Assembly (NCBI GenBank): GCA_050084515.1
Contig: CM114271.1
Span: 32,550,001 to 32,614,000, forward strand
Origin: Blasia pusilla
Taxonomy: Eukaryota
Reading direction: 5' to 3'
DNA: 64,000 nucleotides
Position 1 is the stretch's first letter, and every line of letters starts with the position of its first letter. Under the pieces are notes generated by a model. It saw only the letters and a program-made list of their open reading frames with translations, was not told the DNA's origin and searched no databases. The position numbers and the translations under genes were made by a program. Of this stretch, positions 1-64,000 are shown piece after piece.

Positions 1-59
1 GTGGCTAGGGTTGCTACATAGCAACCAAAGCCAGAGGTTGCGTCCTCTCCGAGTGAGAT

Positions 60-4392: not shown

Positions 4393-4695
<303 letters not shown>

Positions 4696-10682: not shown

Positions 10683-11002
10683 TGTAGAAAATTGCTAAAC
10701 AAGCATAATTGATTGAACACGACTTTCACATACATACACACACCATCATGAAGAATAAAATTTTGCAATGAAAGAGTGAGTGGAGGTTGGGTCCCTTTCT
10801 CAATTATATAGGCATGTACAAGCAACCCTAACCCTAACCCTAATTCTAATCATAATTTTGAGTTATACTAATGGTGATTAACTAACCTTAATTAAGATAA
10901 TCATGCTTAATTAAGTAACCAAGATTAAGCTTTCCTACTTTGTGTAAGTATCAAATGTAATAGTTTGTGTGTTCGATCAATTTGACTATAACTCAATCTT
11001 CA
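10683..11002 (-). repeat. Copia 5' LTR
   Basis: Aligns with 5005-5292; adjacent to the decayed PBS. Confidence 0.8.
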
Positions 11003-12001: not shown

Positions 12002-12384
12002 TGTCACGTCTTTTAGGATAGATCGGTGAGATCTAGTAGAGCGCCTTCTTGAGTAGCCAAGGACAAGCTCAATTGGTCGAGGATGACCTGCTGAGGCCGC
12101 GGAAAACCTGAGAGAGCAGGTTTCCCCTTTGTTTCGGCTTATTTGGAGCCATATTGAGAAACTTACTATTTTAGGTAAACACCATTTTGAGTATATGATC
12201 AACTTTCTATTTTTGGTAAGTGTCTTTTGACCTCCTACCTTAGGTTAAGAGCCAAGGATGTGACTTGGGAGAATAGGTTACCATGAAGAGAGTTTGGGAG
12301 AGGGGAGGGGTATACCTAAAGGAGATAGAGTTTGAGAGCTCATTCTTTCTTTGTTGAACCTCTTGGTCCCTTACCTTGTGAGTG
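12002..12384 (+). repeat. Repeat A1 of copy 2 (3'-truncated by deletion)
   Basis: Direct repeat of the 5' part of A2 (starting 20383); homologous to 54893-55270. Confidence 0.92.
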
Positions 12385-16400: not shown

Positions 16401-19400
16401 CATCCGCATGTGGGTACCAGAGTTCTCTACCGAGGGATATTTTGTAGTTGAGGGCGTAGGATTTAGAGTGGGTAGGGACCATTGATTTGGTCATTTTCGG
16501 TTAGCCATGTCGGGGCCAATGGAGTGTTGGACGAGGCAGTGGGTTGGCTGACACTCGATCCAGGTTTTTTTGGGAGATGTTGAGGGTCTTACGGTAGTTG
16601 CAGGAGCACCAATCTTGTTCTCCAGCCTACATTCTAGAGAATGTGCCAATCTTAGGAGACTCCAGGTCACGGGTGGTGATAAGTGCTCATCAGGTGCGTG
16701 CCTGGATCGGCTCAACAGTGTTCTTGGATGCGGCGAGTGTAGGTTCTAGAGCCCATCGCCCGCATCTATGGTGGACCAACTTGGTGCCCCATGCGGTGTT
16801 ATGGAGGGCGTATGGGAGAGTGGAGCATCCCTCCCATTTGTCAGTGGATTCCATTTTGGATCCAGGTCGTCGATCACAGGCAGTGAGGCACGATGATCGA
16901 CCACCATTGATTGTGGTCAACAGGGTAGGCAGGCCGTGGGCAGCCTTGCTCACGTTTGTAAGTTTTCGCGCTTCCTATGCATACAAGGAGTTTGCTCCTA
17001 GCTTGGTTTGGGATGACCAGGTTCAGTGGTTGGTGGAGCCCAACGCCGACAAGAGAGAGAGAGAGCGATGGGATTTCCCACAGGAGTGATGGCAGTACCG
17101 TTAGTGTCAGAGGCATTACGACGCCATGTCTTGGGTCAAGCGATGGACCTGAACTACTTGACATGGATCCTCAGCTTGGGAGTGGCTTAACAACGTAAAA
17201 TGAGATCGCGATAGATCGCATCGGTTGCGTTGGTGAGCCCCATGCCTACCAAGATGGTGGAGGCAGTGGCTGGGGGCGAGACCCGAGGAGACCTACACAC
17301 CAGGGGAGATCGAGAGAGACACCCTTGGACTTCTTGGGATGTTTTGAAGGTACGCCAGGAGATGATAGCCACAACATCGAGGGTGGTTACAGACACTACA
17401 CGTGGAGTTTGTAGTTGGTTGTAGGAGAGTGGCCGAGTGTTGTTGTTCGAGACAGGGTTGCACCATAGCAACCATCAATACCGTGGCGGAGAGTCCTACC
17501 GTAGTCACGATGGAGACTTGGGAGCCAGATATGGGCCCTAGGTTGACAGGAGGAGAGCGGCGCCGGATACATCAGTTCCTCAGGAGTTATAGGAGCTGGT
17601 TTGCGTTTAGCATGGAGGATTTGGGTACGTTGAAGGGACCCGGGATCCGCATTGAGTTGTCGAGTGATACGTCGATCTTCCGACGATCCTACAGGTACAG
17701 TGATATGGAGAGGGCTCTGATTCAGAGTAAGAGCCAGGACTTGGTCGGAGCAAGACTAATGGAGATGTTGCATGGGGAGTATGCATCTGCCACTATCATG
17801 CATGGCAACTAGACGGATAGGCGGATGTGTGGGGATTACCGACCTATCAATTGGTAGACAAAGTCCGATAGGTATGCCATGCCTACCCCTTAGGAGATCT
17901 TTGATGCGATTGATCATGCAAAGGTCTTCAGTTCATTGGATTTGGGAGCAGGCTGCCTATCAGATTGGAGGACAGGCAGAAAACGGCATTTTGGGGCATC
18001 GATCCTCACGGGAAGGATTTTTTGTACTAGTGGCGGTTCTTACAACTAGAAAGGACGCAGGGGGTGTCCTTTCTAGTTGCACATAGATTGGAGCATGTTG
18101 GGGCTTGGAGCGGTGCTCACCCAACATGATGATGAGGGTAGAGAGTTTGTGGTGGCTTACGCTAGCCGCTCGAACAACGCTGCAGAGGCGAAGAACAGCT
18201 TGTATGAGGGTGAGTGCTTGGCTGCGATGTGGGCTGTCTCACATTTCAGGTGTTACTTATTCGGCAACCCTTTACCATCATCACTGATCATCAACCACTG
18301 AAGGGGTATGGAGTCCGACAAGCTTAGAGGGAAGCTTGCGAGATGGGCTCTTTTGTTGCAGGAGTATGATTTTCAGGTGGTTCATAGACTTGGGACACTC
18401 AACCAAGATGCAGATGGGTTGAGTCGTGACCCATGCCTGAGTTAGCGAGATGCGACTGGAGCTTGATGGCATGGAGAGAGTGATGAGGAGTCAGTGCTAG
18501 GATGGCACGCGTCAGCCTATTTAGGCATGTTGGCTATGGAGAGCCATAGTGTGGAGACTTCGATGGCAAGGTCTAGTGGAGAGTCCTTGGATCCCGTGGC
18601 CAGTGAGGAGACGACAAGTGGTCAAGATATTCATGATGATGGAGTAGTCTTGGAGTACCTTCGTACTGGTAGCATTGCGAGCACCGTGGGTGCTAGAAAG
18701 CGGGATCGGATCCTACAATGGGCCAGACGGTTCCGTTGGGAGGGGACACATATTTTGAGGGTTTGGGAGGATGGTATAGTACGCGTAGTGCTGCATCCTT
18801 TGCAGAGAGCACGACTAGTGCAACATGCCCACGAGGAGTTGGGTCACTTTGGGGTGAAGCAAACGTACAACTTGCTCCAGATTCAGTATTGGTGGCGAGG
18901 CATGCAGACTAACGTTCAGCAGTTTGTTGCAAGGTGCATGGTGTGTGATCAGGTCCGAGCATCGTTCAATGCTCCGACACCACAGTTGCATCCATTACCG
19001 ATCATGGGCTTAGGGTATAGATGGAGTTTGGATTTTGCAAGACCTTTGCCTTTGAAAAGCGTCACAGTCATTTTGTGTTGGTGATGGTCGAGCACTTCTC
19101 AAAGTGGATCGAGTTGGTTGCATTGCCTGACAAAGTGAGTGAGGGAGTAGCTTATGCCTTCCATGACAGAGTGTTAAGTCATTATGGCGCACCGGCTGAG
19201 GTGTTGACAGACCAGGGTACCGAGTTTCGCTGTGAGGTCCAGGCCTTGTGTGATTAGGCGCTGATCGACCATCAAACGACTTTGCGAGATCATCCTGAGA
19301 CGGATGGATTAGCGGAGAGAGTTGTGTAGACGGTGAAGAGGAATTTATGCAAGTATGGCTTGCAGAGAGGTCACCTAGGAGATTGGGACCTCCAATTGAT

Positions 19401-20067: not shown

Positions 20068-20253
20068 AGGAGATAATAGGGAGGTTTCAATTCCTACTTT
20101 TCCTTTGACATGGATGATAGGAAGGCGACTAACAATGGGGCCACCTGAGCACCTGGCCTTTTGCTCTTAGCGTTCTAGAGATGTATGTCGTGGTAGGTAG
20201 AGATAGAGGGCTATCTGGAGTTAGAGGGACCTAACCACCAACTATGGGGGCGA

Positions 20254-20380
20254 TTGGAGATATTTTAGTACTTCTTGTCTCGTTTTTTGGATGCCATGAG
20301 TTAGCATAGGATCGTGCGTGTTTGTGTGTGTGTTCGGTGACAGCGATGTATGTTGTGTAGCAATGTGTATGCGTACGGTA
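20254..20380 (+). repeat. Repeat B1 of copy 2
   Basis: Direct repeat of 20901-21029; follows the G-tract ATGGGGGCGA. Confidence 0.93.
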
Positions 20381-20382
20381 AC

Positions 20383-20899
20383 TATCACGTCTTTTAGGAA
20401 AGATCAATGAGATCTAGTAGAGCGCCTTCGTGAGTAGTCGAGGACAATCTCAATAGGTCGAGGATAATCTACTGAGGCCGCGGGAAACTTGAGAGAGCAG
20501 GTTTCCCCTTCGTTTCGGCTCATTTGGAGCCATATTGAGAAACTTACTATTTTAGGTAAGTACCATTTTGAGTATATGATAAACTTTATATTTTTGGTAA
20601 GTGGCATTTGACCTCCTACATCAGGTCAAGAGCCAAGGAGGTGACTTGGGAGAATAGGTTACCATTGGAGAGAGTTTGGGAGAGGGGAGGGGTATACCTA
20701 AAGGAGAGAGAGTTTGAGAGCTCATTCTCTCTTTGTTGAACCTCTTGGCATAAGGTGGCGGACCTATGGTCCCTTGCCTTGTGAATGTAACCCAAGCCTC
20801 TCATTAGGAGAGTGGGTTTGGTTTGACATGAGAGAGAGAGTGCACACCTTTGAGAGCTATGGTTTGAGATGGTGTCGAGAGAGATTGGATCTTACTTTA
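20383..20899 (+). repeat. Repeat A2 of copy 2
   Basis: Repeat of A1; full-length match to 54893-55380. Confidence 0.93.
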
Positions 20900-20900
20900 A

Positions 20901-21029
20901 TTGGAGATATTTTAGTACTTCTTATCTCGTTGTTTGGATGCCATGAGTTAGCATGGGATCGTGCGTGTTTGTGTGTGTGTGTTCGATGACAATGATGTAT
21001 GTTGTGTAGCGATGTGTATGCCCACGATA
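20901..21029 (+). repeat. Repeat B2 of copy 2 (3' terminus)
   Basis: Repeat of B1; ends CACGATA. Confidence 0.93.
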
Positions 21030-22226: not shown

Positions 22227-22332
22227 TGTCGTGCGAATCCACATCGTCATACAACATACATCGCTGACATACCATACGCACATACATACATAACATAGAC
22301 GAGAGTATCCACAAACGCAAGTGTACCACAAC
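22227..22332 (-). repeat. Repeat B2 of copy 3 (3' terminus)
   Basis: Near-identical to 22704-22808. Confidence 0.95.
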
Positions 22333-22696
22333 TGAAATCCGTGAAAGACCTACTGTCATAAAACACGTTTACAATCACATACAATCGAGCCAAACCCACT
22401 CCACGATGGGAGAATCCAGGTTAAGCTTGGAAACACCATAGCCAAGAGCTCTACTCACTACCAAGGCTAACTCCCAACGAATAACAGGCTCAACTCAAAG
22501 AATGATCGTTCTTTGAGGGCAAGCCACCTTATATCCTCCAACCTAAGAGCGGGCCCTACTAGGAAAGTCACCCCAAGTGAGTAACCCCAACCCTATGTAT
22601 GGAACCACATCTCTACCAAGCCACTATGATCCTACATAAGGAATGGCCTCTACCAAAGACACCATACTCTACGACATAATCCGTATGGTCATGACA
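22333..22696 (-). repeat. Repeat A2 of copy 3
   Basis: Near-identical to 31587-31956. Confidence 0.95.
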
Positions 22697-22699
22697 ATT

Positions 22700-22808
22700 T
22701 GTCGTCGTGCGAATCCACATCGTCATACAACATACATCGCTGACATACCATACACACATACATACATAACATAGACGAGAGTATCCACAAACGCAAGTGT
22801 ACCACAAC
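22700..22808 (-). repeat. Repeat B1 of copy 3
   Basis: Near-identical to B2; preceded on the sense strand by TTAGGGGGGCGA (22809-22820). Confidence 0.95.
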
Positions 22809-22980
22809 TCGCCCCCCTAACTGGCGGTTAGGTCCCTCTAACTCCCAGGTAGCCCTATACATCTACTACATGCTATACACCTTCTTGGGTGCCGAATCAG
22901 AAGGCCGGGTGCTAGGTTGCCCCATCGTTAGTCGCACATCTGTAATCCATATCATGCAAAGATCAAGTCATCTACCTCTC

Positions 22981-25900: not shown

Positions 25901-28900
25901 TACCGGTCCAACCAGAGAACCCAACTCCTTCATGCTAAAGGCAAAACAACTCCTATGAGCACGTAGGAACTGTGTCAGCGTCGTTTCTCACCTCCCGTAA
26001 GCTTGGGCCCAAGTAATGGCTCCCAAGTCTCCTCCTTTGGCACACTAGAGGGAGAGGACGATGCCATTGGTCGCACGCAACCCCCTCACAAGATGGTACA
26101 CCCTTAGCTACACCATGATCTCGAGCAAATAACTCCTCCACCAAAGATGAGCAACCAACTCCACATGCCCGGCCATTACATCCCATCTACTCCAAGGATG
26201 CAAAATACTACTCTCCTCGCTTGACCGATGCCTCTACCGTCCCGGTAGCCATCGAGCTTATTACAAGGGGTGGAAGACCCACAGACATAGTCCGAAGTCG
26301 ACACCGCTCGCCATACCAAGACTCAAAATCCAAGTCAAACACCCAGGTCCATGGCCTGACCCAACACATGACGTCATGAAGCCTCGTAAATAGAAGCAAA
26401 TTTGTCACACCAATAGCAAATCCCATCATGACGCTCTCTCTCATCAGCGTTAGGCTCACCAACGCCGCACATGAGAATCCCATACAAGCCGCGACCACCT
26501 TCCTCGTAGGCATGTGACGAGGGAAAACTCACAAATGTGGGTAGTGCCATCCTAGGTGGCCCACACGGTTCACCAACGCCATGGGTGACCGATCAATAAC
26601 CCTCACCACTTGAGAAAGTCCCAATATTCAAGATACTATCCTTTGTGAAGGCGAGGATCATTGCCTTTGACGCCTCATATGCTCGACGTAGAACCTCCTA
26701 GGCAACAAGTTTGTCCACCACAAGCGTGGGCGATGTGCACGCTGAGCCAACTCCAGCATCCAACAACACCGCTGGTCCAATCCAAGACCGCACTCATGAA
26801 CACTCGCCATCATCCGGTTCGAGTGTCACCCAACAATGGAACATTCTCCAAAATGTAAGCTAGAGTACGTGCTCGATGAACTGAAGATGTCGTAACACCT
26901 GTAACATCTCCCAAAACAATCGAGACCTAGGGTCATGTAATCCCTCACCACGACCAGCATGTGTATGACCCTGACATGGCCATCTAGCAATCACCAAATC
27001 CACAGGACCAACCCTCTCAAGGTCCTGTGCCCCCAACAATGCAATGTGTGATGGTAAAGCACGCTGGTACCCACGAATAGCGATGGCGGCAACAACTCAG
27101 ATATCTCCGCATCAATCGACCAATATGTCGGGATGAGACTCTGGGCCGTCTCATCTCGCTCCACATACACGTATCTCCGCATAGGAATACCGGCCTGCAA
27201 CACTGCCGCCAAACCAGTGCTAATCCCACCAAAGAGATCTAACACACAAATGCCCTCCAGCAGATATTGCCATACAATGGGTGTAGTATCCAAAGGGAAT
27301 AACCCAACTGGGCCAGAAGTAGGAGTCCGCCGTGGGGCCTCCTCTTCCTCGTGAGGTATAACAACCTCACACCAAGCCTCCTCGCACTAGGCGACGCCTC
27401 TGCCGTAGTGCACCGCTTGAACTCCAAAGTGGCACATCCAACGATGAGGATGCCACCTTTGCTGCAAAAAAATAGGGACCTCCTCTACCTCCTCATGCGC
27501 AGGAGAATCCATAGCGAAACATTACCCTCCAAAAGTCTCCTGCCAAGTGACTACTCCACTAAAACCACCACGATGCTAACACTGTTGGGGAAGACCTCTG
27601 GTCGAGCCCCGTAAATAAATCTCATAGGAACTTGGCTCATACGTCCATCCCGGACTGCCAACCAGGTCTCAGAAGAAGATTTGTCTCGACCCAAGTAATC
27701 CATCTGAAAACCCATCGGTACACATCGCTCCTCCAACTAGTACATCATACGACTCGCCGATGTGACTACATGCAGATACTCCCAACCGGAGCTATCGGGT
27801 CGCATGATCTGGTCTCAACTGTACAGAAAACTTTTCCCGTGTCATGAATTGAGACCTATCATTGGCTCCTCCAAGTGATGTTTGAATGGAATGGGCAAGG
27901 CTCAAGCTCGACCTCGAATACCCAAACCAATACATGCCGCCTTTCCCAACATCAAGGTTGGGCACCGAGTCTAACAAGACTCTATCTGGTCTATACACAT
28001 CTGTAGGACTCACCAATCGGAAGATCCACTCCGGTTGTCCAACATACATACACCAGTGTAGCCTCTCACGATCAATGGTGGCCGGGTGGTAATGCATCCA
28101 TCTTCGCCGCCGTCGCCAAGTATCACCGGGTACTCAATGCTACTTGACATAGAGGGTCGCTCCACCGCAACACCCTCATCCACCTCAACACGTAGCAAGA
28201 ATAACACCCCACGTTCACACAACGTGGTCGCTAATCAAATACAAGAGCTAAGTCAACTCCTAAAGCCATCAGCTCCGTGGCCGAAAACAATGGGGATCCC
28301 AACACTGAAGTTGCCATCCGCAATACTGCATTGGATGTTGCATCCGTGTCTACTACACGCGATGTAGATGCCTCAGTCCCCACTGTCGGCTCAATAGGCT
28401 GCGTAGGAACCATGGATGGAGTCCTAAGCACCTCAAACAACAAGAATGATTGGGGAAGCCTAGCATGCCTCCCAGCCTCACCCCTCTATGGGTCCAACTC
28501 CACAGTAGCACCACGTGGCTCTGACGCTCGAGTGGCTCCTCTCAGAATCGCACTGATGGTGATCCTCAACTTTGTCTTGCACTCGCCATATAAGAGAGAT
28601 CATCCCTCCATAAGAGGTGGAAGCCCCTGCTCCCGAACTCCGATCTATCTTTGGATACCACCATAGTAGCCAACTTCTGCTCCAACTGCTCAATCCTGGC
28701 AGCCATAGCTGACTCTGTCGTAGTGGTAGGGGTAGCCACCGTAGGCTCTCCAACCACTGGTCCACCTCTACCACCCCTACCACCTCTACCACCTCGGCCT
28801 CTCGGAGCTACTCCACCACGGCCACGGCCTGATCTCAACTCTGGATGAAGATCAAAGCAACGCTCTCGAGGATGACCTAGTCTCCCCGCAATGATCACAC

Positions 28901-31586: not shown

Positions 31587-31956
31587 TGAAATCCGTGAAA
31601 GACCTCTTGTCATAAAACACGTTTACAATCACATACAATCGAGCCAAACCCACTCCACGATGGGAGAATCCAGGTCTAAGCTTATGGAAACACCATAGCC
31701 AAGAGCTCTACTCACTACCAAGGCTAACTCCCAACGCACGCACAAAGCTCAACTCAAAGAACTGATGTTCTTTGAGGGCAAGCCACCTTATATCCTCCAA
31801 CCTAAGAGCGGGCCCTACTAGGAAAGTCACCCCCAAGTGAGTAACCCCCAACCCTATGTATGGAACCACATCTCTACCAAGCCACTACGATCCTACATAA
31901 GGAATGGCCTCTACCAGCACACCATACTCTACGACATAATCCGTATGGTCATGACA
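31587..31956 (-). repeat. Repeat A1 of copy 3 (5' terminus)
   Basis: Repeat of A2; not followed by B on the sense strand. Confidence 0.95.
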
Positions 31957-34900
31957 ACACAAGTGTTTGAATACGTGAGGAAGGGTTGTTGTTACAAGAT
32001 AATCATAAATATAGGAAAGTTGGTTAGGAGTGTGGAAGACTTAAGGTGAGTTTGAGTGCTTGGGCGTATGAGGCGGGATATCATTATGACGTTCAGAAGA
32101 ACGAGGTAGTTCGAGGAGTTGTGAGGGAGTTATATGGAGTGGAGTGAGATATCAATGGATTTCGTCCAGTGGTCGTGGGGTGTATGATGGGATAGTGAGA
32201 TCGACTATACCCACACCTTCAAACCAAGAAGTAGAGGGAGATGATGTCATATATGGTAATGAGGTGGTAGAGACCTTTGGTAGTAGACGACCACCTAGTT
32301 TCAACTCAATGGTGAAGTTCATTTGAGAGTTGTGGAATAACTTCCAAGGTGTGCATACTGACAAGCTAAAGAGTACATGATTTTTAGCAGAGATTAAGTG
32401 AGAGTTTGTGTGAGGCATTCATGCACATGCATCGGTTGATCATTGGTAGCTATCCATGGAGTGACAGAGGCCAAAACATTACCTCATTTAAGACATTTGA
32501 GCTTGAGGGATGATCCATACTCGGGAGACGTAAGGTTGGTTGACATGGCTAATATGAGTGTGTTTGGTAGTAAATCAATGATGAGATCACGACTCGATGA
32601 ATGCAAACTTTTGTGACACACAAGATTGTCGCTCAGGACCATAAGTGCATAACACTAGGACACACACATACACACATGGTTGTGCATGTTGTTATACTTT
32701 CTAGATCTTATCAAAACCTTTGACCTGTGGGTTTTTTTTATTTTGAGTCCTCTATTTTTCCACTTAATTGTTTTGACATTTGAAATTTAAAGGTCCCCTC
32801 CCTCTTTGAAAAACCATAAGTGGTGCTTCTTACCTTCATTTCTTTACCATTTTCTTGTCCTCTTTATGGAGATGGGCGACTCAAAAAGGGTCCTCGACAT
32901 GCCATTGGGGGATAGTGGGTGGCGAAAGCTTTTCATGATGTGTGGGAATACAAGGAAGTCCATAAGGATGACACATCAATCAAGAGGAGTCGTCAATTCC
33001 ACATGGCAAAGCTCTGTGGGAGTTTTGGATGCATGCTTCTCCGATAAGATTGTGTCTATATCATACAATCCTAGGATGGTATGGATAGCAAGATCATTGT
33101 TGGACAACATCAAGAACAAAGGCCATCTTACAATCATTGTGAGAAGCCATAAGAGAGTCACGCTGCAATCACAACACAACCACAAGAGTAAGTAGTTGCC
33201 ATTATTGATGGTCACAAAATGCCCTCATCACATTCACCGTATTCACATATTTCCATAAGATTATTTGCAGTGTTTCAGATTCAAGATCACTGGACTTCTG
33301 GATTACAATTGTTTCCACAAACTGGAGAGGGAGGAGAGAAGGGGGGTTAGGATAGCCAAGCAATACATTAAGCATTCATATTTGGTACATGGTGTTAACA
33401 ACATGAGATTGCCGTTGTCACTAATGTTGATACAAGAATTGCACTCATTAAAGTCATTTTTGTATGGATGGAAAGACTCCAAGGGTATGAGCATGCAATT
33501 CATTTGTATTTGAATCCCATGTAGAAGGAGAAGCACAAATATGGGATTCTCCGCAAATAAGCAATTGATAAATAGAAGAAGAATTCGAGTGCCAAATAAA
33601 TCCTTGTAAGGGTCAACATTTCCAAGCTACAAAAGTTCTCTCACCATTCTAGGCAAGTGAGCAATTGAGACAAACGAGAAGAAAGCAAGTGCCAAAAAGA
33701 CTGCTGCCTTCCCTGCTTTTCCATGACCCACAACTGATTTCTCATAATTTCTCGATATTATTTTTCACTGCAAATATGAGAAATGTGCCCATCCGGACAC
33801 ATCACTTATAGTCCAAAACTCCAAGTTTCAATCCACCACACATTTACCCTTTGAATCTCTTGCTTTCTAAAGCTGCACCTAAAACAGTTGTGAGGCTCTT
33901 TGCCAGGGAAAGCCACACAATTGGCTCTTCAATGTACAATGCTCAGCAGCATAACCCTCAGGCAGCGTTCTTGAATAGTGTGGAGGAATCTGCCCTCCCA
34001 TTAAGGGACATTACAGAGACCAAAACTCAACAACTGAATCATCCGTGAAGAAGGGAAGCCAGTCCAACACCCCCACTTCTTAAAGGTGCTTTGGATGGTA
34101 CACTGCTACTGGAAATCCTGCATCCACGAGGTAAGAGTTTAGTAACTGCTATGAGAGCTTTTCTCCTGCGTCACAACAGCCACAACAAAGTTAAATTCAC
34201 AAAATTTCAGCAGGCATAGATCTTTATCCTACACCTGCACACATTTAATACTTCCGTGCTATTCAGTCTCCTGGTCAAAGCGTATACAAACAAGGAAAAG
34301 TTACCAGTAGGTCGGAGCCACTGTGGCAGCACGCAACACAGTACTCCTCATAGAAATATCTGAAAGTGCAATCGTAGAATTCTTCCTGTGAATGTGCAGC
34401 GGCAACAAAATCATCATAAGTCTTCCTGATCCAATCTTAAACATCTTACAGAGGAAAAGAAGGGAATCAATGAATGAATGAATGATTTGAACTACTTTCG
34501 TTGGATTTTCCACAAATGGAGGTGGTTCAGAAAATTTCTATCCAATATTAAATGATATAGGGTCAGGTTTATTAGTTTGAGATGGGCAAAGAAACAGTCC
34601 CAACTAGACTCGAGAGAAAAACAAAGTGGAGAATAGTCACAACCAGAAAATCATTTGACGGATTTCATTCAATCAGTGTGAGTTGAACTTACTTTATAAT
34701 CCTTGAGAAACGGTTATGGGAAACCTTCCACATTGCATATGTCAGGCTCCGTCCACCACCATGTGTCAAGTTTCTAGGCTTAGACTCCCCATGAAGGAGG
34801 ATTGATTTAAGCGCAGGACTAGGACACTCTTTTCTCCAATTGTTCACCCAGGAGCATGGCCAAAGTTCACCCAGGCTGCAGGCTCCTGGACTGTACATCA

Positions 34901-53755: not shown

Positions 53756-54892
53756 TGCTCCCGCCCGCCCTAGACAGGCTTCAATTGATCAAACGCGCAC
53801 CAGTTCCAAGATTCTTCGTTTGTGCAGAACTCGAATCACTTCTCTCTCTGCGAAGCAGATAGAAAAAATGTTCACAATCCAACCTCACAGCATCATTGAA
53901 CGACACACAATCTCACGCAGGCGCTCACAGCCAAATTCCGTGCGACTCTCGAGCTCCCCCCTCCACACCTCACTGAACCCTACAATTCACTCTCCCTTCG
54001 CCGATCTAACCCTCCTTCAATCCGACAGTAATGTCGGCTATCAGAACTCCCAGCTTGGCGGCGTTTAGGGTCGAGGAGCAGTGTCTCCAAAGCCCTAGTC
54101 TGATGATCTCGTTCCGTCCCACTCCTCGAGAACAACTCACAAGCAACGACCTCCAACCCGGTAAAACCCTAGCTCGCTCTCTTTCCTCCCTCCCCGTACA
54201 CTCCATCGTATCGACATACGAGGCGCGCTCATGTCTCAGACCTCCAAACGGTGCAGGAAGGAACCTCCTCTCGAGATCTTCCGGCGCGAACTAGGCGAAT
54301 AGCCTCCACGCTTTCGCAGAGTCGGGCACAATTGATCGATTGTTTAGTTCCAGCGACCAAATATCCTTCCCACGTAACCGATTCCGCGAGCCACTTCCCG
54401 ATTCGCCTCCCAAAAAGACAACTGCGTCTCTGCTCCTGACTATATTCTTGCTTCCGAGGGCCGCGGCATCCTCCCGCTGAAGTGGCTGAGGTCCCTTAGT
54501 TTCTAGGGCAAAGAGGAGCGAAATCAGGACCGCAACGTCAACGGCGCGCATGCCGGGAACGTCTTAGTGGATTTCGCAGTCGACACGTTTCCCGGTGGGC
54601 AGCTCGCGTCTACTGTGATACCAACTGCGCAGTGGAGTGCCGTGTTCCGGCTGTGATGCGGAGACGGAACCCCGTAGATGTGATATGCGGCACACCAGCG
54701 TAGGAGACTAGTAGAAATGCGTATTTCTCGTGGAAACGAGAGTTGGAAATGGATGGGAGAATCCTTCAAAAGTGGAGTCAAGAATTCCGAAGATACAAGA
54801 GACTTGGGATCAAAAGAAAAAAGGAAGATGTACTATTCCTAGTCACATGTGGAATGAGGGAGGATAATGTGGTGGTCACAATGACATGGGGT

Positions 54893-55380
54893 TGTCACGA
54901 TTGTTAGGATAGATCGGTGGAATCTAGCAGAGTGTCTGCACAAGTAGTGGAGGATATGCCCAAGAGGTCGAGGATGAACTGTTGAGGCCTAAAGAAACCT
55001 GAGAGAGCATATTTTCCCTTCGTTTCGGCTCATTTGGAGCCATATTGAAGAACTTACTATTTTAGGTAAGTACCATTCTGTGTATATGATCGACTTTCTA
55101 TTTTTTGTAAGTGACCCTTGACCTCCTACATCAGGTCAAGAGCCAAGGAGGTGACTTGGGAGAATAGGTTACCATGGAGAGAGCTTGGGAGAGAGCTTGA
55201 GAGCTCATTCTCTCTTTGTTGAATTTCTTGGCATGAGGCGGCGGAGCTATGGTCCCTTGCCTTGTGAGTGTAACCCAAATCTCTCATTAGGAGAGTGGGT
55301 TTGGTTTGACATGAGAGAGAGTGCACACCGTTGAGAGCTATGGTGTGTGATGGTGTAGAGAGAGATTGGATCTTACTTTA
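54893..55380 (+). repeat. Repeat A1 of copy 4
   Basis: Collinear with copy 2 A2 up to GATTGGATCTTACTTTA; not followed by B. Confidence 0.92.
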
Positions 55381-57149: not shown

Positions 57150-60100
57150 TAGTGTTGTCTTCAGACAAGGGGGAGTGTGTAGAGGAGTTTGTGAGCACAT
57201 CGCCACACATTGTGAGTGGTCATACCAGTTGGCCATACGAGATGGACGAACGGGGTAGAGGACCGCCTAGGTTTCAGGTGCAGTAGGCACGATTGAGTTG
57301 CACAATTTCATCGTAGAGTTTAGGAGTTGGTGCGACTCCCAGCCAGCCAGGAACTCTGGAGAATTCAACCCGTTTATAGCATGGAACGGTATGTTCCAGA
57401 ATTTAGAGGGGGCGCCCATGGACGATTACCATAAGTTCTCTCAGAGATATGCACGTGAGACCAAGGCGTGGAGGCTCTACTATGACCCACATTATGTATC
57501 ATGAACGGAGCCATTCCCAGATAAGGAGGAGGAGTCAAGAGAGGCTACTTCCTCTTCCACTAGTGACGTTCTAGGAGGGATCACTCGCACGGGAGCCGCT
57601 GCACCGTCTAGTCGGGTTCGTCCCAGGTTCAACCCTGTGGTTGAGTTCTTTGCTCAGTTGAGGGCGAGCTACCAGGGGGTACGGACGGAGAAGTTGCGGA
57701 GCATCCACGACTTCTAGAGGCGCCCGGGTGAGAATTTGCGTGAGGCTTACACTCGCTTGCGCCGGTTGATCAACGTTACTCAGGGGTGACAAAGCCTTAG
57801 GCTATCCAGTCATGGTATGCAATGTTGGACCGGACCCTACAGACACGGGTGCAGGAGGGGGTGCTTCTTATGAACACCTCCCCTACGTTGAGAGATGTTC
57901 TTAGGACCACCGAGAACATTGAGCGCAACATGGCCGAGGAGAGTGTATCCACCATGGGTTCAGGGCGAGAGCACTCACAATTGCCTGCACTACCTGTGCA
58001 ACAACATGGACTCTGAGATAGGTCGACTGTGGCACCACGAGCTCAGGGAGGATACCGAGAGGCCGTGCCATATAGACCTGCACCTTCATATGCCACTTAG
58101 CAACAACCGCCTACTATTACTTGTTGGTCATGTGGTGGAGCCCATCATCAGCGTGATTGCACTCGTCAAGGTCATGGACATGTGCCTCAGCATGGAGGAG
58201 GAGATGGTGTTGCACCATGAGGTTATCAATGTGACTATTGTCAGAGGTATGGTCATACACGCGCCATGTCTTTGATTTTAAATCCTGAGTTACGTCCGCA
58301 CCGAGGGCCAGAGAGGGCACCAGAGCGAGTAGTTGGTCCGGGTGGGCCTAGAGATCGTGCACTAGGTGGTCCTGTTGGGGGACGAGGAGCTAGAGTTGTC
58401 CGACACGGTGGTGGAGCTGCCCATGGAGGAGGTAGAGTCGTACCACCTAGATGCGCCAAGGGAGACGTCGGACGTGAGGCTAGGATGGTTGCTCAGATAC
58501 ATCAGCTACAAGAGCATATTGCCGCTATGGCATTGAGATTACCCAATGTCGGATCTGTGACATCGACATCATATGGAGCAGCCATAGATATGGAGGATCC
58601 TGGTTGGATGTGCCAGGTTGCCCAGATGGAGGCCGCCGCAGTTGTGACGGATGGAGCAGCCGCACAGTTGGATCCACAGCGAGGGGAAGCCAGGAAACAG
58701 ACTAGGCTTCCTTAGTCTTTCACGTTTTCCGAGGCAATGAAGACCCCATCGATGGGTCCTTATCAGAGTTCTTGGAGGGTTGGTGATGTTGTTGGTGTGC
58801 ACGCACGAAGGGCGAAGCGAGTGCGACGACTCCTATTGTTGATGCTCAGGAGGGGCATTTGTCGAGCACGTTGTTGGGGGCGGCCACAATTGTGTACCGC
58901 GCTCCTTTCTTTTCTGCTTCCGATGTTATGACGTTGGAGGGTACGCCCTCCGAGGCTTTTGGGCTGGCCGCTACGCTATGTGAGCGAGGAGTTGGAGTTC
59001 CTGCATCACGTTCAGAGGTGATTGCAGAGGAGGTGATGGACCTGCCCTTGGAGAGGATGCTCGCGTTGTCCACGTAAGATTCATGGCAGGCTGCGGCTGC
59101 TAGGATGGCGAAGATGCCCGCTAGACCCGCGATAGAGCGTGCCATGGCTTTTCCTCGTGTTGTATTGCAGGATAACCGAGGAGCAGTCTTCCAGTTGGTG
59201 AGTCCCAGAGGTAGAGCTTTCAATCCGCAGCGCGTCTTGTTGGATTCAAGAGCGCAACCCCTTATGTTGGGGAAAGTGTCATTCAGAGGATTGGGCTTGA
59301 CGAGAGCCGATGTGGAGCGTTGTCCATCCCGGATACAGACATCCTTGGATGGAGCGAGTACCATACAGTACATCACCCGAAAGGAGGTCGTAATGAGGAT
59401 TCGCACGGGACATCCTACAGATGAGTCCGTGGTGCGAGCTAAGGCGATAGTGACTAATGCAAAGTCCTACGACGTCTTGGTTGGTGGAGCAGTGTTATAC
59501 CCGATGGGGTTTTCCCTCGATTACTAGGAGGAGTCAACGTCCTACAGATGAGGATGGCAGTCAGGTGATGGGCGTCTTAGTTCATTACCCGTTTGATTCA
59601 TAGGTGCAGTGATCGAGCAACGGCCAGGAAAGATGGCGACCTTAACATCATTTAGCAGTGCCATCATTTGGCCTAGTGATTTGATTGAGGGACATGTCCA
59701 TGCGAAGGATACTCCCGTTCTTGACATTTCTATAGAGAGGAGTATTATGGTAGCCGTATCATTCCGTGGAGGAGAGGTGCCCTTGTGGGGCTTGATTGAG
59801 GAGCTTCGACGATTGGCACATGAGCACATGCAGACCGCGTGGAGTGAGGCGTTTTGCATCGGAGAGTGACAGGTCTGAGGAACCCGAGGTAGCACGGAGT
59901 GCTACGATGACACCCTTGGATACCACACCCATTGTGTGGTGTATCACGGAGAAGGGTATTCGAGTGTTAGATCTCTTTGGAGGGATTAGCACCGGGTTAG
60001 CTGCTGTTTTGCAGGCAAGAGTGCACGCGCAGCAGTACCTGTATATGGAGAGTGATGATGTTGTGAGGCGCGTCTCACTACGACTTGTGGCGCACTTACG

Positions 60101-63100
60101 CCTACGTTTTCCCGACTTATTGTCGGCGTGCGCGATACATGGGTACCAGAGTTCCCTATCGAGGGATATTTCGTTGCTGGGGGCGCAAGACTTAGACCGG
60201 TTAGGCACCATTGATTTGGTCATTGCCGGTTGGCAATGTCAGGGCCAATCGAGTGTTGGACGAGGCAGCGGGTTGGTTGACATTCGGTCCAAGTTATTTT
60301 GGGAGATGTTGAGGGTCTTACGGCAGTTGCAGGAGCATCAGTCTTGTTCTCCAGCCTACATTCTAGAGAATGTGCCGATCTTAGGAGACTCCATGTCACG
60401 CGTGGTGACAAGTGCTCATCAAGTGCGTGCCGGGATCGGCCCAGCAGTGTTCTTGGATGCGGCGAGTGTAGGTTCTAGAGCCCATCGCCCGCGTCTATGG
60501 TGGACCAACTTGATGCCCCATGCGGTGTTACGGAGGGCATATACGAGAGTGGAGCGCCCCTCCCATTTGTTAGTGGATTCCATTCTAGATCCACGTCGTC
60601 GATCACAGGCAATGAGGCATGATGATTGACCACCGTTGACTGTGGTCAATACGGTAGGCAGGTCGCGGGCAGCCTTTCCCACGTTTGTGAGTTTTTCCGC
60701 TTCCTATGCATATAAGGAGGCTGGTCTTGGCTTGGTTTGGGATGAACAGGTTCAGAGGTTGGTGGAGCCCAACGCCGACGAGAGAGAGCGGGCGATGGGA
60801 TTTCCCACAGGAGTGACGGCAGTACCGTCTGTATCAAAGGCATCACGACGCCATGTCTTGGGTCGCGATGGACCTGAACTGCTTGACATGGATCTTCAGC
60901 TTGCGAGTGGCTGAGTAGCGTCGGATAAGATCGCGACAGATCACAGCGGTTGCGTTGGTGAGCCCCATGCCTACCGAGACGGTGGAGGCAGTGGCTTGGG
61001 GGCGAGACCCGAGGAGATCAACACACCAAGGGAGATCTAGAGAGACACCCTTGGACTTCTTTGGATGTTTTGTAGGTACACCACGAGATGATAGCCACAG
61101 CATAGAGTGTAGTTCCGGGCATTGCATGTGCAGGAGATCAGAGTTTGCAGTTGGCTCCAAGAGGGCGGTCGAGTCTTGTTGTTCGAGACGGGGTTGCACC
61201 ATAGCAACCACCGATATCCGCGCTAGAGAGTCCTACCTTAGTCACGATGGAGACTTGGGAGCCTGATATGGGCCCTAAGTTGACAGGAGGAGAGCGGCGC
61301 CGAATACATCAGTTCCTCAGGAGTTATGGGAGTTGCTTTGCATTTAGCATGGAGGATTTGGATACGCTGAAGGGACCGGGGATCCGCATTGAGTTGTCTA
61401 GTGATACGCCAATCTTCTGACGACCCTACAGGTACAGTGATATGGAGAGGGCTCTGATTCAGAGTAGGAGCCAAGACTTGGTTGGAGCAGGACTAGTGGA
61501 GATGTCGCATGGGGAGTTTGCATCTTCCATTGTCATGCCCTCCAAGAAGGATGTGCATGGCAACTGGACGGATAGGAGGATGTGTGGGGATTACCGATCT
61601 ATCAATCGGCAGAAGAAGTCCGATAAGTATGCCATGTCCACCCTTGAGGAGATCTTTGATGCGATTGGTCATGGAAAGGTTTTCACTTCATTGGATTTGC
61701 GAGCCGGATATCATTAGCTACCTATCAGATTGGAGGACATGCAGAAGATGGCATTTTGGGGCATCGATCCTCACATGAAGGATTATTTGTACCAGTGGCG
61801 GTTTTTACCATTTGGGTTAAAGAACGCCCCGGCTGAGTTTTTAGGGTTTAGGTACGTCAAGGGATTCAGTTTGATTGCGAAGCTGCTGACCTTGCTGACC
61901 AAGGTGGATCACGAGTGGCACTCGAGGAATGAGCAAGAGCAAGAATTTCAGTTCCTCAAGGACACGTTGACGTTCGCGCCCATCTTGAGGAGACCGATCA
62001 GGGGGCGTCCTTTCGTGGTGCACACAAATTGGAGCATGTTGGGGCTTGGAGCGGTGCTCACCCAGCATAATGATGAGGGAAGAGAGTTCATGGTGGCTTA
62101 CGCTAGCTGCTCGAACAACGCTGCAGAGGCGAAGTATAGCTCGTATGAAGGTGAGTGCTTGGCTGCAGTGTGGGCTGTCGCGCATTTCAGGTGTTACTTA
62201 TTTGGCAACCCTTTTACCATCATGATTGATCATCAACCACTTAAGTGATTGATGGAGTCCGACAAGCTTACAAGGAAGCTTACGAGATGGGCTCTGTTGT
62301 TGCAGGAGTATGATTTTCAGGTGGTACATAGATCTGGGACGCTCAACCAGGATGCATATAGGTTGAATCATAACCCAAGTCCGAGTCAGCGAGATGCGAT
62401 TGGAGCTCGATAGCATGGAGAGAGTGATGAGGAGTTAGTGCCTGGATAGCACCAGTCAACCTATTTAGGCATGTTGGTTATGGAGAGCCAGAGTGTGGAG
62501 ACTTCGATGGCGAGGTCTAGTGGAGAGTCCTTGGATCATGAGGCCACTGAGGAGATGACAGATGACGGAGATATTCATGATGATGGAATAGTCTTGAAGT
62601 ACCTTTGTACTGGCAACGTTGCGAGCACCGTGGGTGCTAGAGAGTAGGATCGGATCCTACAACGGGCCAAACGGTTCCGTTTGGAGGGGACACATGTTTT
62701 GAGGTTTGGGAGGATGGTAGAGTATGCGTAGTGCCGCGTCCTTTGTAGAGAGCATAACTAGTGCAGCATGCCCACGAGGAGTTGGGTCACTTTGGGGTGA
62801 AGCGGACATACAGCTTGCTCCAGATTTAGTATTGGTGGCGAGGCATGGAGACTGACGTTCAGTAGTTTGTTGCCAGGTGCATGGTGTGTGATCGGGTCCG
62901 AGCATTGTTCAATGCTCCAACTCCACGGTTGCATCCATTACCTTTCATGGGCTTAGGGTATAGATGGAGTTTGGATTTTGTAGGACCTTTGCCTTTGACG
63001 AAGCATCACAATCCTTATCTGTTGGTGATGGTCGAGCACTTCTCGAAGTGGAATGAGTTGGTTGAATTGCCTGACAAAGTGAGTGAGGGAGTAGCTTATG

Positions 63101-64000
63101 CCTTCCTTGACAGAGTGTTGAGTCATTATGACGCACCGACTGAAGTGTTGACAAACTAGGGTACCGACTCTCGCGGTGAGCTCCAGGCCTTGTGTGATCA
63201 GACGTTGATCGACCACCGCACAAAACTTCGCGAGATCATCCCGAGGCGGATGGATTAGCGGAGAGAGTTGTGCAGACATTGAAGAGGGGTTTACGCAAGT
63301 ACGGCTTGCAGAGAGGTCACCTAAGAGATTGGCACCTCTAGTTGCCATGGTTGGCAATGGGATATAGATTCAGCATGCAGGCATCCTTAGCATCTTTTTC
63401 ACCGTACTTCCTACTTTATGGCCGAGAGCGAGATTCATCTGCAGCCATTCGTCGAGATGCTGGTGAGGTGCTGGACCTTGATGACCTAGATGTATGGATG
63501 CGAGCATGTTCTCAGAGGGTTGAGTTGTTTCGGAGAGTGATGCCCATGACGTTCGAGAACTTGGCGATTGCGCAACATCGGGATAAGTTGAGGTATGCGA
63601 CTATTCGAGGTGGTGGTTATCAACCAACTATCCGGAGGTTTCATCAAGGAGATTATGTCTACTTGCAGTAGATGGTACCGACGACGTTGGATGTGACTGC
63701 AAGGCGTACTACCCTGAGAGTGCATGACATTTTGCCATCCCGTGTTCTCTTGTTGGAGGGACGCGATGGTATGGTATGGAAGGACCATGTGCGTAATTGT
63801 GCGCCATGTCACCTTCCTAACATTGATGGTACCATAGATCCGAGCTCAGGAGTAGTTCCCGCAGGCTTGCGTTGTATGTTGTGTGGTTCTGCTCATGGTG
63901 CGGCCACGATGCTAGTATGTGATGGATGTTCGAGAGGTTGGCATATGGCATGTGTGACGCCACCTCTCACTAAGGTTCCTCGGGGACGATGGATGTGTCC
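57150..64000 (+). pseudogene. Degenerate gag-pol of copy 4
   Basis: ORF fragments carrying gag, VLLDSRAQP, methyltransferase, RMCGDYR, RNaseH, integrase and PHD motifs. Confidence 0.9.
59920..60915 (+). pseudogene. DNMT3-like C5 cytosine methyltransferase domain, copy 4 (best preserved)
   Basis: ORF 59796-60629 has IRVLDLFGGISTG (I), YLYMESDD (II), DISLL (III), IDLVIAGWQCQG (IV), YILENV (VI) and DAASVGSRAHRPRLWWTN (VIII); ORF 60636-60914 has ERERAMGFPTGVT (IX) and RRHVLG (X). Confidence 0.92.

What the first reader, a model, noticed from the sequence alone, without database searches (positions are those of the whole stretch)
59920..60915. Gypsy-like retrotransposon family carrying a DNMT3-like cytosine methyltransferase between protease and RT
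Seen: three copies (16190-17190, 26320-27293, 59920-60915) carry the conserved C5-MTase motifs I-IV, VI and VIII-X in canonical order at the same position in pol, including the divergent copy 3. So it is an ancestral domain of the family, not a one-off capture. Knowledge: the motifs resemble animal DNMT3 (IRVLSLFDGIATG, DLVIGGSPC, ENV, AAHRARYFWGN, ERVFGFP) rather than circularly permuted DRM. From memory, DNMT-bearing retrotransposons were reported in dinoflagellates and charophyte algae (de Mendoza et al. 2018); I do not recall one in a land-plant genome like this. Inference: the enzyme may methylate the cDNA or the new insertion, for self-regulation or camouflage.
Basis: partly seen in the sequence, partly recalled or inferred. 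Interest (0 to 1): 0.92.

Follow-up and report, generated by a model that had tools for sequence, protein, structure and literature searches.

The report
Dead Gypsy retrotransposons carrying a DNMT3 domain
The window holds four decayed copies of a very abundant jumping gene whose own polyprotein includes a DNMT3-type DNA cytosine methyltransferase, a kind already described in a streptophyte alga and here seen in what looks like a liverwort genome.

Summary
Three retrotransposon copies (B 12002-21029 +, C 22228-31957 -, D 54893-64000 +) carry a C5-methyltransferase domain at the same place in pol. A fourth copy (A, 1-~4170) is cut off by the window before that point. The order is gag, protease, DNMT, RT, RNase H, DDE integrase, PHD.

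The domain is DNMT3-like and not permuted. It matches PF00145 at E 3e-8. All 29 PDB sequence hits and the top Foldseek ranks are DNMT3A/B/C.

All three window domains are broken by stops and frameshifts. D also lacks the catalytic Pro, and B and D lack the RT core.

The family is old and widespread. Close relatives sit unnamed in Calypogeia, Marchantia and Sphagnum proteomes, and more distant ones in Closterium and Scenedesmus. The catalytic Cys, ENV and RxR are kept in 96-100% of 178 domains.

In this organism's own runs the family shows depth suggesting thousands of copies, and it has sense-strand RNA.

Elements have an A-coding-B-A-B repeat layout with 4-bp target duplications. This is the layout de Mendoza et al. 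2018 report for KnitGypsy-Dnmt3 of Klebsormidium.

Verdict: a new member of a known kind. I found no paper naming the land-plant copies. What the enzyme does remains inferred.

The parts
54895..55380 (+). Copy D, 5' repeat unit A (LTR-like); the element starts TGTCACG at about 54893
   Evidence: 83% identical to unit A of copy B (20385-20899). WGS depth jumps from 0 to about 2000 at this boundary.
57274..58760 (+). Copy D, gag with a CCHC zinc knuckle, split over two frames
   Evidence: tblastn to Marchantia P0005 residues 15-490, with a frame change at 57783. The CX2CX4HX4C motif is visible in ORF 58221-58715.
59078..59527 (+). Copy D, aspartic protease-like stretch (reads DSRA; copy B reads DSGA)
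   Evidence: No Pfam hit in the window ORFs. The homologous B ORF (15134-15613) aligns at E 2e-6 to P0215 residues 644-705, where Pfam finds Asp_protease_2 at 663-711.
59901..60915 (+). Copy D, DNMT3-like C5-MTase domain (the finding). It is a pseudogene: stop at 60627-60629, frameshift near 60865, motif IV reads WQCQ.
   Evidence: PF00145 E 3.1e-8. 62% identical to Marchantia P0005. 29 of 29 PDB sequence hits are DNMT3A/B/C. AF2 pLDDT 85.1, and the top Foldseek ranks are all DNMT3.
61241..62311 (+). Copy D, RT (core partly deleted at 61840/61851) and RNase H
   Evidence: RVT_1 matches profile positions 18-130 of 205 only, at 27.3 bits, below the cut-off of 29.6. RT_RNaseH E 1e-31. P0008 residues 852-957 have no counterpart. 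1594 WGS reads run on into other sequence at 61840.
62749..63222 (+). Copy D, DDE integrase (H2C2 zinc domain and rve core)
   Evidence: Integrase_H2C2 E 2.4e-15. rve E 7.4e-5, 23.4 bits, below the cut-off of 32.6.
63873..63998 (+). Copy D, C-terminal PHD finger; the window ends here
   Evidence: PF00628 E 3.4e-10. The same domain in copy B (19651-20067) scores E 1.3e-5.
12002..12366 (+). Copy B, unit A1
   Evidence: 92% identical to 20385-20748; 7.7% divergence over 363 aligned sites.
16163..17187 (+). Copy B, DNMT3-like domain. It is a pseudogene with 7 in-frame stops and a frameshift near 17053-17062; it keeps PC next to a stop.
   Evidence: tblastn E 6e-107, 59% identity; X count.
20253..21029 (+). 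Copy B, 3' end: B1 20253-20380, A2 20385-20899, B2 20900-21029
   Evidence: B1/B2 90.8% identical over 130 nt. A purine run GGGGGCG lies directly before B1.
26344..27302 (-). Copy C, DNMT3-like domain. It is a pseudogene split over two frames; it keeps WPCQGHT and RAHRPRLWWTN.
   Evidence: tblastn E 3e-56 and 6e-35 in frames -2 and -3.
22228..22809 (-). Copy C, 3' end: B1 22704-22809, A2 22333-22697, B2 22228-22333
   Evidence: B1/B2 99% identical over 106 nt. A2 is 94.6% identical to A1 (31587-31957). The C B-unit is 75-77% like copy B's B-unit. Possible 4-bp target duplication GTGT.
31587..31957 (-). Copy C, unit A1 (5' end of the element)
58..2997 (+). Copy A, RT, RNase H and integrase. The window start cuts the copy just after where the DNMT would lie.
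   Evidence: tblastn to P0008 residues 691-1190 in one frame. RVT_1 E 8.7e-23 and RT_RNaseH E 6e-32, with 5 X (stops) in 592 aa.

Best explanation
The region is the methyltransferase domain of a dead copy of a Ty3/Gypsy-type LTR retrotransposon family of the 'Gypsy-DNMT3' kind. A functional element encodes one polyprotein: gag (CCHC), aspartic protease, DNMT3-type C5 cytosine methyltransferase, RT, RNase H, DDE integrase and a C-terminal PHD finger. The element is bounded by split direct repeats (A - coding - B - A - B) and inserts with a 4-bp target duplication.

Shown here: the domain architecture, the DNMT3 affinity, the decay of all window copies, the family's depth ratio and sense transcription in this organism, and its presence in other bryophytes and green algae with catalytic residues conserved.

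Inferred, not shown: that the enzyme is made as part of Pol, travels with RT and integrase, and methylates the element's own new cDNA or its insertion site. About 40% of my belief is on such self-methylation. About 25% is on chromatin or site targeting together with the PHD finger. The rest is on other or no DNA activity. The window copies themselves can do nothing.
For: Same domain at the same pol position in 3 of 3 copies that include that part. PF00145 E 3.1e-8. 29 of 29 PDB sequence hits are DNMT3A/3B/3C, best E 3e-11. AF2 model pLDDT 85.1, pTM 0.88, and every row shown to rank 48 of the Foldseek list is DNMT3, TMt up to 0.81.

Uninterrupted relatives carry the full order. P0215 (2358 aa) has Asp_protease_2 663-711, DNA_methylase 953-1137, RVT_1 1443-1596, RNase H, integrase and PHD 2300-2344. 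P0008 of Marchantia has protease, DNMT, RT and RNase H.

Family-wide conservation in 178 near-full domains: Cys 98%, ENV E 100% and N 96%, RxR 98% and 99%. 2213 cluster representatives at E<=1e-3 and 170 at E<=1e-30.

WGS run of the same species label: depth 820-2370 on D against 0-0.9 in the flank. RNA runs: depth 6-194 on D, almost all with the first mate on '-'. The neighbouring spliced gene, which lies on the minus strand by its CT..AC introns, has the first mate on '+'. So the element's RNA is sense.

A-B-A-B repeats are present in window copies B and C and in an unrelated metagenome locus, L035. L035 shows a 4-bp duplication (AAGG) and C a possible one (GTGT). This matches the legend for KnitGypsy-Dnmt3.
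Against: No window copy is intact. B versus D in the DNMT region gives dN/dS 0.74 over 312 codons, close to neutral. So the window alone gives no sign of selection.

Only 1 of 5 window DNMT-region ORFs reaches Pfam's threshold. The protease is not recognised by Pfam in any window copy.

Most RNA and DNA reads are only 85-95% like D. The reads at 99% or more are about as many as the flanking gene alone would give (my estimate). So transcription of D itself is not shown, and intact expressed copies are not shown either.

The copy number rests on a flank depth of a handful of reads.

Enzyme activity is unproven: the Klebsormidium domain gave no methylation in yeast, which the authors called inconclusive. 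About 40% of the family has EC instead of the canonical PC in motif IV.

No Klebsormidium sequence came back in any search. Common descent with the published family is therefore inferred from architecture only.
Confidence: 0.9

Rival explanations
1. The liverwort-type family is a separate lineage that captured a DNMT3 independently of the Klebsormidium KnitGypsy-Dnmt3 family. It would then be convergent rather than the same family.
For: No Klebsormidium protein appeared among the 47, 44 and 120 listed rows of three searches. Within the wider set the DNMT sits in two different places: RT-DNMT-IN in 58+21 proteins and DNMT-RT-IN in 11+10. These separate on the DNMT tree. So the domain has moved or been captured more than once. 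de Mendoza 2018 shows that such captures recur.
Against: Shared and unusual combination: Gypsy domain set with DDE integrase, non-permuted DNMT3 domain inside pol, and the A-coding-B-A-B repeat layout. The hosts are all streptophytes. The searches need shared 5-residue words, so a miss is weak evidence.
Confidence: 0.2
2. The domain is no longer a DNA methyltransferase in this family. It would be kept as a structural, nucleic-acid-binding or RNA-directed module of Pol.
For: The KnitGypsy-Dnmt3 domain gave no DNA methylation in yeast. 72 or more of 178 family domains have Glu instead of Pro before the catalytic Cys. The authors themselves raise RNA methylation for the LINE-borne DNMT.
Against: The catalytic Cys (98%), ENV (100% and 96%), RxR (98% and 99%) and the motif I glycine (98%) are kept across very divergent members. 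That is hard to explain without catalysis. The closest folds are DNA-bound DNMT3A/B, and no DNMT2 appears in the sequence hits. Human DNMT3B also failed in the same yeast assay.
Confidence: 0.15
3. The DNMT pieces are remnants of host DNMT3 genes that retrotransposons happened to insert into, or an assembly chimera.
For: Nothing beyond the fact that the window copies are broken.
Against: The same junctions with protease and RT occur in 3 of 3 window copies from two subfamilies that are 65-75% identical. The domains lie in continuous ORFs in other species. Raw WGS and RNA reads cover the DNMT region at the same depth as the rest of the element. No PWWP or ADD domain and no introns are present.
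Confidence: 0.01

Closest known systems
KnitGypsy-Dnmt3 of Klebsormidium nitens (de Mendoza et al. 2018, Nat Commun 9:1341; passages and sections 10-11 read)
   Same: LTR Gypsy domain composition. Non-rearranged Dnmt3-related domain inside the Pol ORF. No introns. Repeat layout 'the same as that of a DIRS retrotransposon', that is A-coding-B-A-B. Streptophyte host. Copies carry silencing marks or decay.
   Different: The host here looks like a liverwort, since the nearest named relatives are Calypogeia and Marchantia. The depth ratio suggests thousands of copies, whereas the paper stresses few copies in K. nitens. The window copies are dead, with dN/dS 0.74 between B and D against Ka/Ks <0.2 reported for K. 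nitens copies. The sequence-level relation could not be tested. Domain order and a PHD finger in the K. nitens element are in a figure I could not see.
SymbioDIRS-Dnmt3 of Symbiodinium (same paper)
   Same: Dnmt3-type domain in Pol. A-coding-B-A-B repeats. Shown there to methylate CG de novo in yeast.
   Different: Those are DIRS elements with a tyrosine recombinase. Here there is a DDE integrase (Integrase_H2C2, rve), a 4-bp target duplication in L035 and a possible one in C, and no tyrosine recombinase match in the three forward frames of D.
Host DNMT3 enzymes (animal DNMT3A/B/C; bryophyte DNMT3 such as MpDNMT3b, Mp5g09290)
   Same: Catalytic fold and motif order. These are the best sequence and structure matches.
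   Different: About 21-23% identity to human DNMT3A/B in the Foldseek alignments. No PWWP or ADD regulatory domains. Embedded in a retrotransposon polyprotein. The Marchantia gene models that match (Mp4g09160, Mp8g17980 and others) are not the gene studied as MpDNMT3b.
Chromoviruses (Ty3/Gypsy with a chromodomain after integrase)
   Same: A Gypsy backbone with a chromatin-reader domain fused to the C-terminus of integrase.
   Different: Only 2 listed distant relatives (P0206, P0212) carry both.
PAT/Ngaro-type DIRS elements with split direct repeats (recalled; not checked in a paper here beyond)
   Same: A1 - internal - B1 - A2 - B2 layout.
   Different: Those integrate with a tyrosine recombinase. 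This family has a DDE integrase, TG...CA ends, a 4-bp target duplication in L035 and a possible one in C.

Membership tests
Gypsy-DNMT3 retrotransposons (KnitGypsy-Dnmt3 kind) | Ty3/Gypsy domain set and order (gag, protease, RT, RNase H, DDE integrase) | tested here: met
   Pfam on three read-through frames of D gives RVT_1, RT_RNaseH, Integrase_H2C2 and rve. Protease is assigned by alignment to P0215. gag is assigned by tblastn and the CCHC motif.
Gypsy-DNMT3 retrotransposons (KnitGypsy-Dnmt3 kind) | Non-rearranged Dnmt3-related domain inside the Pol ORF, without introns | tested here: met
   The ORF is continuous across protease, DNMT and RT in relatives P0215, P0008 and P0036. In the window itself the ORF is broken in 3 of 3 copies.
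Gypsy-DNMT3 retrotransposons (KnitGypsy-Dnmt3 kind) | Repeat layout A - coding - B - A - B | tested here: met
   Present in window copies B and C and in locus L035, which is 3 of 3 elements with both ends resolved. L002 ends inside A2 and L027 is unclear.
Gypsy-DNMT3 retrotransposons (KnitGypsy-Dnmt3 kind) | DNMT and RT cluster with the K. nitens element sequences | not testable with these tools
   No Klebsormidium row.
Gypsy-DNMT3 retrotransposons (KnitGypsy-Dnmt3 kind) | [quoted passage not shown] | tested here: inconclusive
   B versus D gives dN/dS 0.74, as expected for dead copies. Across 178 family domains the catalytic residues are 96-100% conserved.
Eukaryotic DNMT3 catalytic domain | Motifs I-X in unpermuted order; best matches are DNMT3 | tested here: met
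   phmmer against PDB gives 29 of 29 DNMT3A/B/C. Foldseek rows shown to rank 48 are all DNMT3.
Eukaryotic DNMT3 catalytic domain | Open reading frame with intact PC, ENV and RxR in the window | tested here: not met
   0 of 3 window domains are open. D reads QC for PC. B keeps PC next to a stop. C keeps PC but is frameshifted.
Host DNMT3 gene | Stand-alone gene with PWWP and/or ADD regulatory domains | tested here: not met
   No such Pfam match in the three forward frames of D. The domain is flanked by protease and RT.
Plant DRM | Circularly permuted motif order (VI-X before I-V; definition recalled) | tested here: not met
   The order is I, IV, VI, VIII, IX/X. No DRM structure is among the PDB sequence hits.
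DIRS order (DIRS1, PAT, Ngaro) | Tyrosine recombinase instead of DDE integrase | tested here: not met
   Integrase_H2C2 and rve are present. No PF00589 match at E<=0.01 in the three forward frames of D. A 4-bp target duplication is seen at L035 (AAGG) and a possible one at C (GTGT).
Chromovirus | Chromodomain at the integrase C-terminus | tested here: not met
   A PHD finger (PF00628) is found instead in D and B.

The most novel reading that the evidence does not exclude
Bryophytes, here most likely a liverwort with a large genome, carry a very large and still transcribed Gypsy-DNMT3 lineage. It would be inherited from streptophyte algae and absent from vascular plants. If some copies are intact, this is an unrecognised transposon-borne source of de novo DNMT3 activity in land plants. 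Its replication would also be unusual. It has DIRS-like A-B-A-B repeats, yet it has a DDE integrase, TG...CA ends, a 4-bp target duplication in L035 and a possible one in C. The polypurine run sits before B1 rather than before the 3' A unit. This suggests a circular or two-LTR-junction intermediate opened at the B|A boundary.
Probability: 0.35. Interest if true: 0.65.

Novelty: new member of a known kind. Interest (0 to 1): 0.45.

Why it matters
Cytosine methylation is the host's main weapon against transposons, so a transposon that carries its own de novo methyltransferase is a paradox. It has been studied in only two algal lineages. Finding the same kind in land plants, with a read-depth ratio suggesting thousands of copies and with sense RNA, makes the question testable in tractable models. 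Relatives sit unannotated in the Marchantia and Sphagnum proteomes. One could test whether the enzyme marks the element's own cDNA, guides where it lands together with the PHD finger, or leaks onto host DNA. It also warns annotators that many 'DNA (cytosine-5)-methyltransferase' gene models in bryophyte genomes are retrotransposon pol fragments, which would inflate DNMT3 gene counts.

Tried and rejected
- **Whole-genome search.** No genome is held for this window.
- **Naming the organism.** Run labels are coded, so I did not pursue it.
- **RNA holders in the run index.** No RNA holder was listed. I laid raw RNA runs of the same species label instead.
- **Klebsormidium sequences.** Three protein searches returned none, so the direct link to the published family stays open.
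- **Host DNMT3 or DRM outgroups for a rooted tree.** None were obtained. The tree is midpoint-rooted FastTree on 180 tips. It contains only domains covering profile positions 25-300, which is 178 of 330 proteins with a DNMT match, plus window B and D. Copy C was left out because it is too broken.
- **Pfam on protease and gag ORFs of the window.** 0 families for the three protease ORFs. The only hit was a sub-threshold zinc-finger match for one gag ORF.
- **Marchantia gene identifiers in papers.** 0 papers.
- **Metagenome loci as a source of intact close relatives.** 80 loci were fetched. In close relatives the longest DNMT-bearing ORF is 451 aa. Long ORFs occur only in distant ones (L068 2014 aa; L072 and L073 1798 aa). 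I therefore computed no dN/dS between intact copies.
- **CpG depletion as a sign of methylation-driven decay.** CpG observed/expected is 0.73-0.78 in the copies and 0.78 in the larger non-element stretch, so it is not distinctive.
- **Long flank duplication at copy B.** 27 nt, 85% identical, E 0.003 in a small search. It is not seen at C or L035, so I treat it as chance or a repetitive target.
- **Consensus or repaired sequences.** None were built.

Full report
**What is in the window**

Self-comparison shows four copies of one retrotransposon family:
- A at 1-~4170 (+), cut by the window start.
- B at 12002-21029 (+).
- C at 22228-31957 (-).
- D at 54893-64000 (+), cut by the window end.

B and D are 87-88% identical. 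C and A are 65-75% identical to them, so at least two subfamilies are present.

**Domain order**

I read the three forward frames of D through their stops with X and scanned Pfam. This gave:
- DNA_methylase (PF00145).
- RVT_1, at 27.3 bits, below the cut-off of 29.6, because the core is deleted.
- RT_RNaseH.
- Integrase_H2C2.
- rve, below cut-off.
- A terminal PHD finger.

tblastn with Marchantia proteins adds gag and a CCHC knuckle upstream. Pfam does not see the protease in any window ORF. However, the B ORF with the DSGA motif aligns at E 2e-6 to the stretch of P0215 where Pfam calls Asp_protease_2.

**The methyltransferase domain**

All three stated regions align to the DNMT domain of a Marchantia protein:

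| Copy | Coordinates | Identity | E-value |
|---|---|---|---|
| D | 59901-60915 | 62% | 4e-125 |
| B | 16163-17187 | 59% | 6e-107 |
| C | 27302-26344 (-) | 48% | 3e-56 |

- Only 1 of 5 window ORFs from these regions passes Pfam on its own (D: E 3.1e-8, 33.8 bits against a cut-off of 22).
- The motif order is unpermuted.
- A phmmer search of PDB sequences returns 29 sequences, all DNMT3A, 3B or 3C, best E 3e-11.
- An AlphaFold2 model of the D domain has pLDDT 85.1 and pTM 0.88.
- In Foldseek every row shown to rank 48 is a DNMT3 structure, with TM-scores to the target up to 0.81.

So 'DNMT3-like, not DRM-like' holds.

**State of the copies**

None works.
- D has one in-frame stop (60627-60629), a frameshift near 60865, and Gln in place of the Pro of the catalytic Pro-Cys.
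- B has 7 in-frame stops and a frameshift.
- C is spread over two frames with several stops.
- B and D also lack different, overlapping parts of the RT core. P0008 residues 839-994 have no counterpart in B, and 852-957 have none in D. A and C keep the core.

Divergence between the repeat units of one element is 7.7% (A units) and 7.8% (B units) in copy B. In copy C it is 5.5% (A units) and 0.9% (B units). B versus D in the DNMT region gives dN/dS 0.74 over 312 codons. That is what decay after insertion predicts, and it says nothing for selection.

**The family elsewhere**

A word-indexed search for longer proteins found 47 relatives. The named ones are:
- Calypogeia fissa, 65% identity.
- Many Marchantia polymorpha 'hypothetical proteins', 53-64%.
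- Sphagnum, 42-51%.
- Closterium, 32-37%.

Profile searches added Marchantia paleacea, Sphagnum tenellum and more Calypogeia models. No vascular plant and no Klebsormidium appeared among the listed rows. That is weak evidence of absence, given how these searches work.

An exhaustive search of 1.84 billion cluster representatives gave 2213 hits at E<=1e-3 and 170 at E<=1e-30. Many are 1000-3400 aa long. One is a 'pol' of the chlorophyte Scenedesmus.

In 178 near-full-length domains the key residues are strongly conserved:
- Catalytic Cys 98%.
- Glu and Asn of ENV 100% and 96%.
- The two Arg of RxR 98% and 99%.

That is the evidence that the domain is under selection in living elements.

On a FastTree tree of these domains, the window's B and D fall in a clade with support 1.0. 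Its only named members are Calypogeia and Marchantia. This is my only basis for calling the host a probable liverwort.

**This organism's own reads**

The run labels are coded. I laid three RNA runs and one WGS run of the same species label on 53000-64000 at 85% likeness.

WGS:
- Depth, both orientations summed, is 820-2370 over D.
- Depth is 0, 0, 0.9, 0.4 and 0 in the five flank bins.
- The family therefore has on the order of thousands of copies. This figure is rough, because it rests on a few flank reads.
- Of 125,620 laid reads, 198 are 99% or more like D, 3870 are 95-99%, 47,898 are 90-95%, and 73,654 are under 90%.

RNA:
- Reads cover the whole element, DNMT included, at depth 33-59 in the two DNMT bins.
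- The first mate is almost always on '-'.
- The neighbouring gene at about 51800-54460 has CT..AC introns, so it lies on the minus strand. Its reads have the first mate on '+'. This calibrates the library and makes the element's RNA sense-strand.
- Most RNA reads are 85-95% like D, so they come from other copies. Expression of D itself is not shown.

Length differences:
- At eight places where D differs in length from other copies, 31-75% of WGS reads and a comparable share of RNA reads do not share D's state.
- Three of these places coincide with D's frame changes.
- So those breaks are private to D or to a subset of copies.
- I observed only and built no consensus.

**Repeat architecture**

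Both window elements with a visible 3' end have the layout A1 - coding - B1 - A2 - B2.
- Copy B: A1 12002-12366, B1 20253-20380, A2 20385-20899, B2 20900-21029.
- Copy C, in element orientation: A1 31957-31587, B1 22809-22704, A2 22697-22333, B2 22333-22228.

The B unit is 75-77% conserved between the two subfamilies, although their A units no longer align.

An independent metagenome locus, L035, whose DNMT is 55% identical to D, has the same layout. Its units are A 1676-2017 and 10350-10691, and B 10238-10350 and 10693-10805.

Further features of these elements:
- They start TGTCA and end ...ACA.
- A G-rich purine run lies directly before B1.
- L035 is flanked by a 4-bp duplication (AAGG) and C possibly by one (GTGT). 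Copy B has a 3-of-4 match.

de Mendoza et al. 2018 describe 'A-coding region-B-A-B' for DIRS elements. They state that KnitGypsy-Dnmt3 has that repeat structure with a Gypsy domain composition. The window family shares this odd hallmark. How a DDE-integrase element produces it is unexplained. One reading is a two-repeat circle junction opened at the B|A boundary. That is my inference only.

**Comparison with what is known, and novelty**

The kind is published: KnitGypsy-Dnmt3 in the charophyte Klebsormidium nitens. Later papers refer to 'streptophytes (Gypsy-DNMT3)'.

Eight full-text searches found no paper that names such elements in a liverwort, moss or any land plant. None cites the matching Marchantia gene models. 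The gene studied as MpDNMT3b is a different locus, Mp5g09290.

Subscription papers and supplements were not searchable, and supplements may list such copies. I therefore file this as a new member of a known kind.

**Function**

Function is inferred. The 2018 paper showed de novo CG methylation by the Symbiodinium DIRS-borne domains. It found no activity for the Klebsormidium domain in yeast and called that inconclusive, because human DNMT3B failed too.

The authors' hypotheses are:
- Self-methylation of cDNA to pass as host DNA.
- Protection from deamination.
- An effect on chromatin at the insertion site.
- Self-restraint.

All of these remain open for this family too.

Noticed in passing
window 51800-54460 (-): An expressed, spliced host gene with a PP28 domain. 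PF10252 scores E 4.7e-10 on exon ORF 51830-1997. Its introns are 53142-53676 and 53848-54264, with an alternative at 53850-54241. Its 5' exons are non-coding, and the start codon lies in the exon ending about 52858. Copy D begins about 430 bp upstream of its transcript start, in divergent orientation.
   Followed up: partly
family-wide (proteins): In 72 or more of 178 DNMT domains the Pro of the catalytic Pro-Cys is Glu (GWECQD 49, GWECQG 14, GFECQD 8, and others). The Cys, ENV and RxR stay conserved in these. This is an unusual variant of motif IV of unknown consequence.
   Followed up: partly
family-wide (330 proteins with a DNMT match): The DNMT takes two positions in pol. RT-DNMT-IN occurs in 58 proteins, plus 21 RT-DNMT fragments. 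DNMT-RT-IN occurs in 11, plus 10 fragments. The two separate on the DNMT tree. The Scenedesmus pol is of the first type and the liverwort and window family of the second.
   Followed up: partly
window copies A, B, D (+) and C (-): The coding strand is G-rich and C-poor (G 30-31%, C 19-21%), with GC skew 0.18-0.30 in every copy. The skew follows the element's orientation. The cause was not examined.
   Followed up: no
window 17971-18059 and 61840-61851: Copies B and D each lack part of the RT core, with different but overlapping extents. 1594 WGS reads run on into RT-like sequence at 61840, so many other copies seem to keep it.
   Followed up: partly
window 11975-12001 and 21035-21060: A 27-nt, 85% identical direct duplication flanks copy B outside its ends (E 0.003 in a small search). 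It is not seen at copy C or L035.
   Followed up: partly
window 4360-4700: A long compound microsatellite, (CA/TG)n followed by (GA/CT)n, lies just after the 3' part of copy A. The 3' repeats of A could not be defined.
   Followed up: no
window 55381-56123: About 740 nt after unit A1 of copy D have no counterpart in copy B (12366-12400). WGS depth there is about half that of the rest of the element, so the family has leader-length variants.
   Followed up: no
window 61368-62131: RNA-only joint skipping 762 nt (5, 11 and 3 reads in the three RNA runs; 4 nt fit on either side of the joint). It is absent from the thinly sampled WGS reads. It could be a deleted copy, template switching or a splice.
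   Followed up: no
window copy C, 22228-22809 versus 22333-22697 and 31587-31957: B1/B2 differ at 1 of 106 sites, whereas A1/A2 differ at 5.5% in the same element. This may reflect gene conversion between the close B units, or A units that were not identical at insertion.
   Followed up: no
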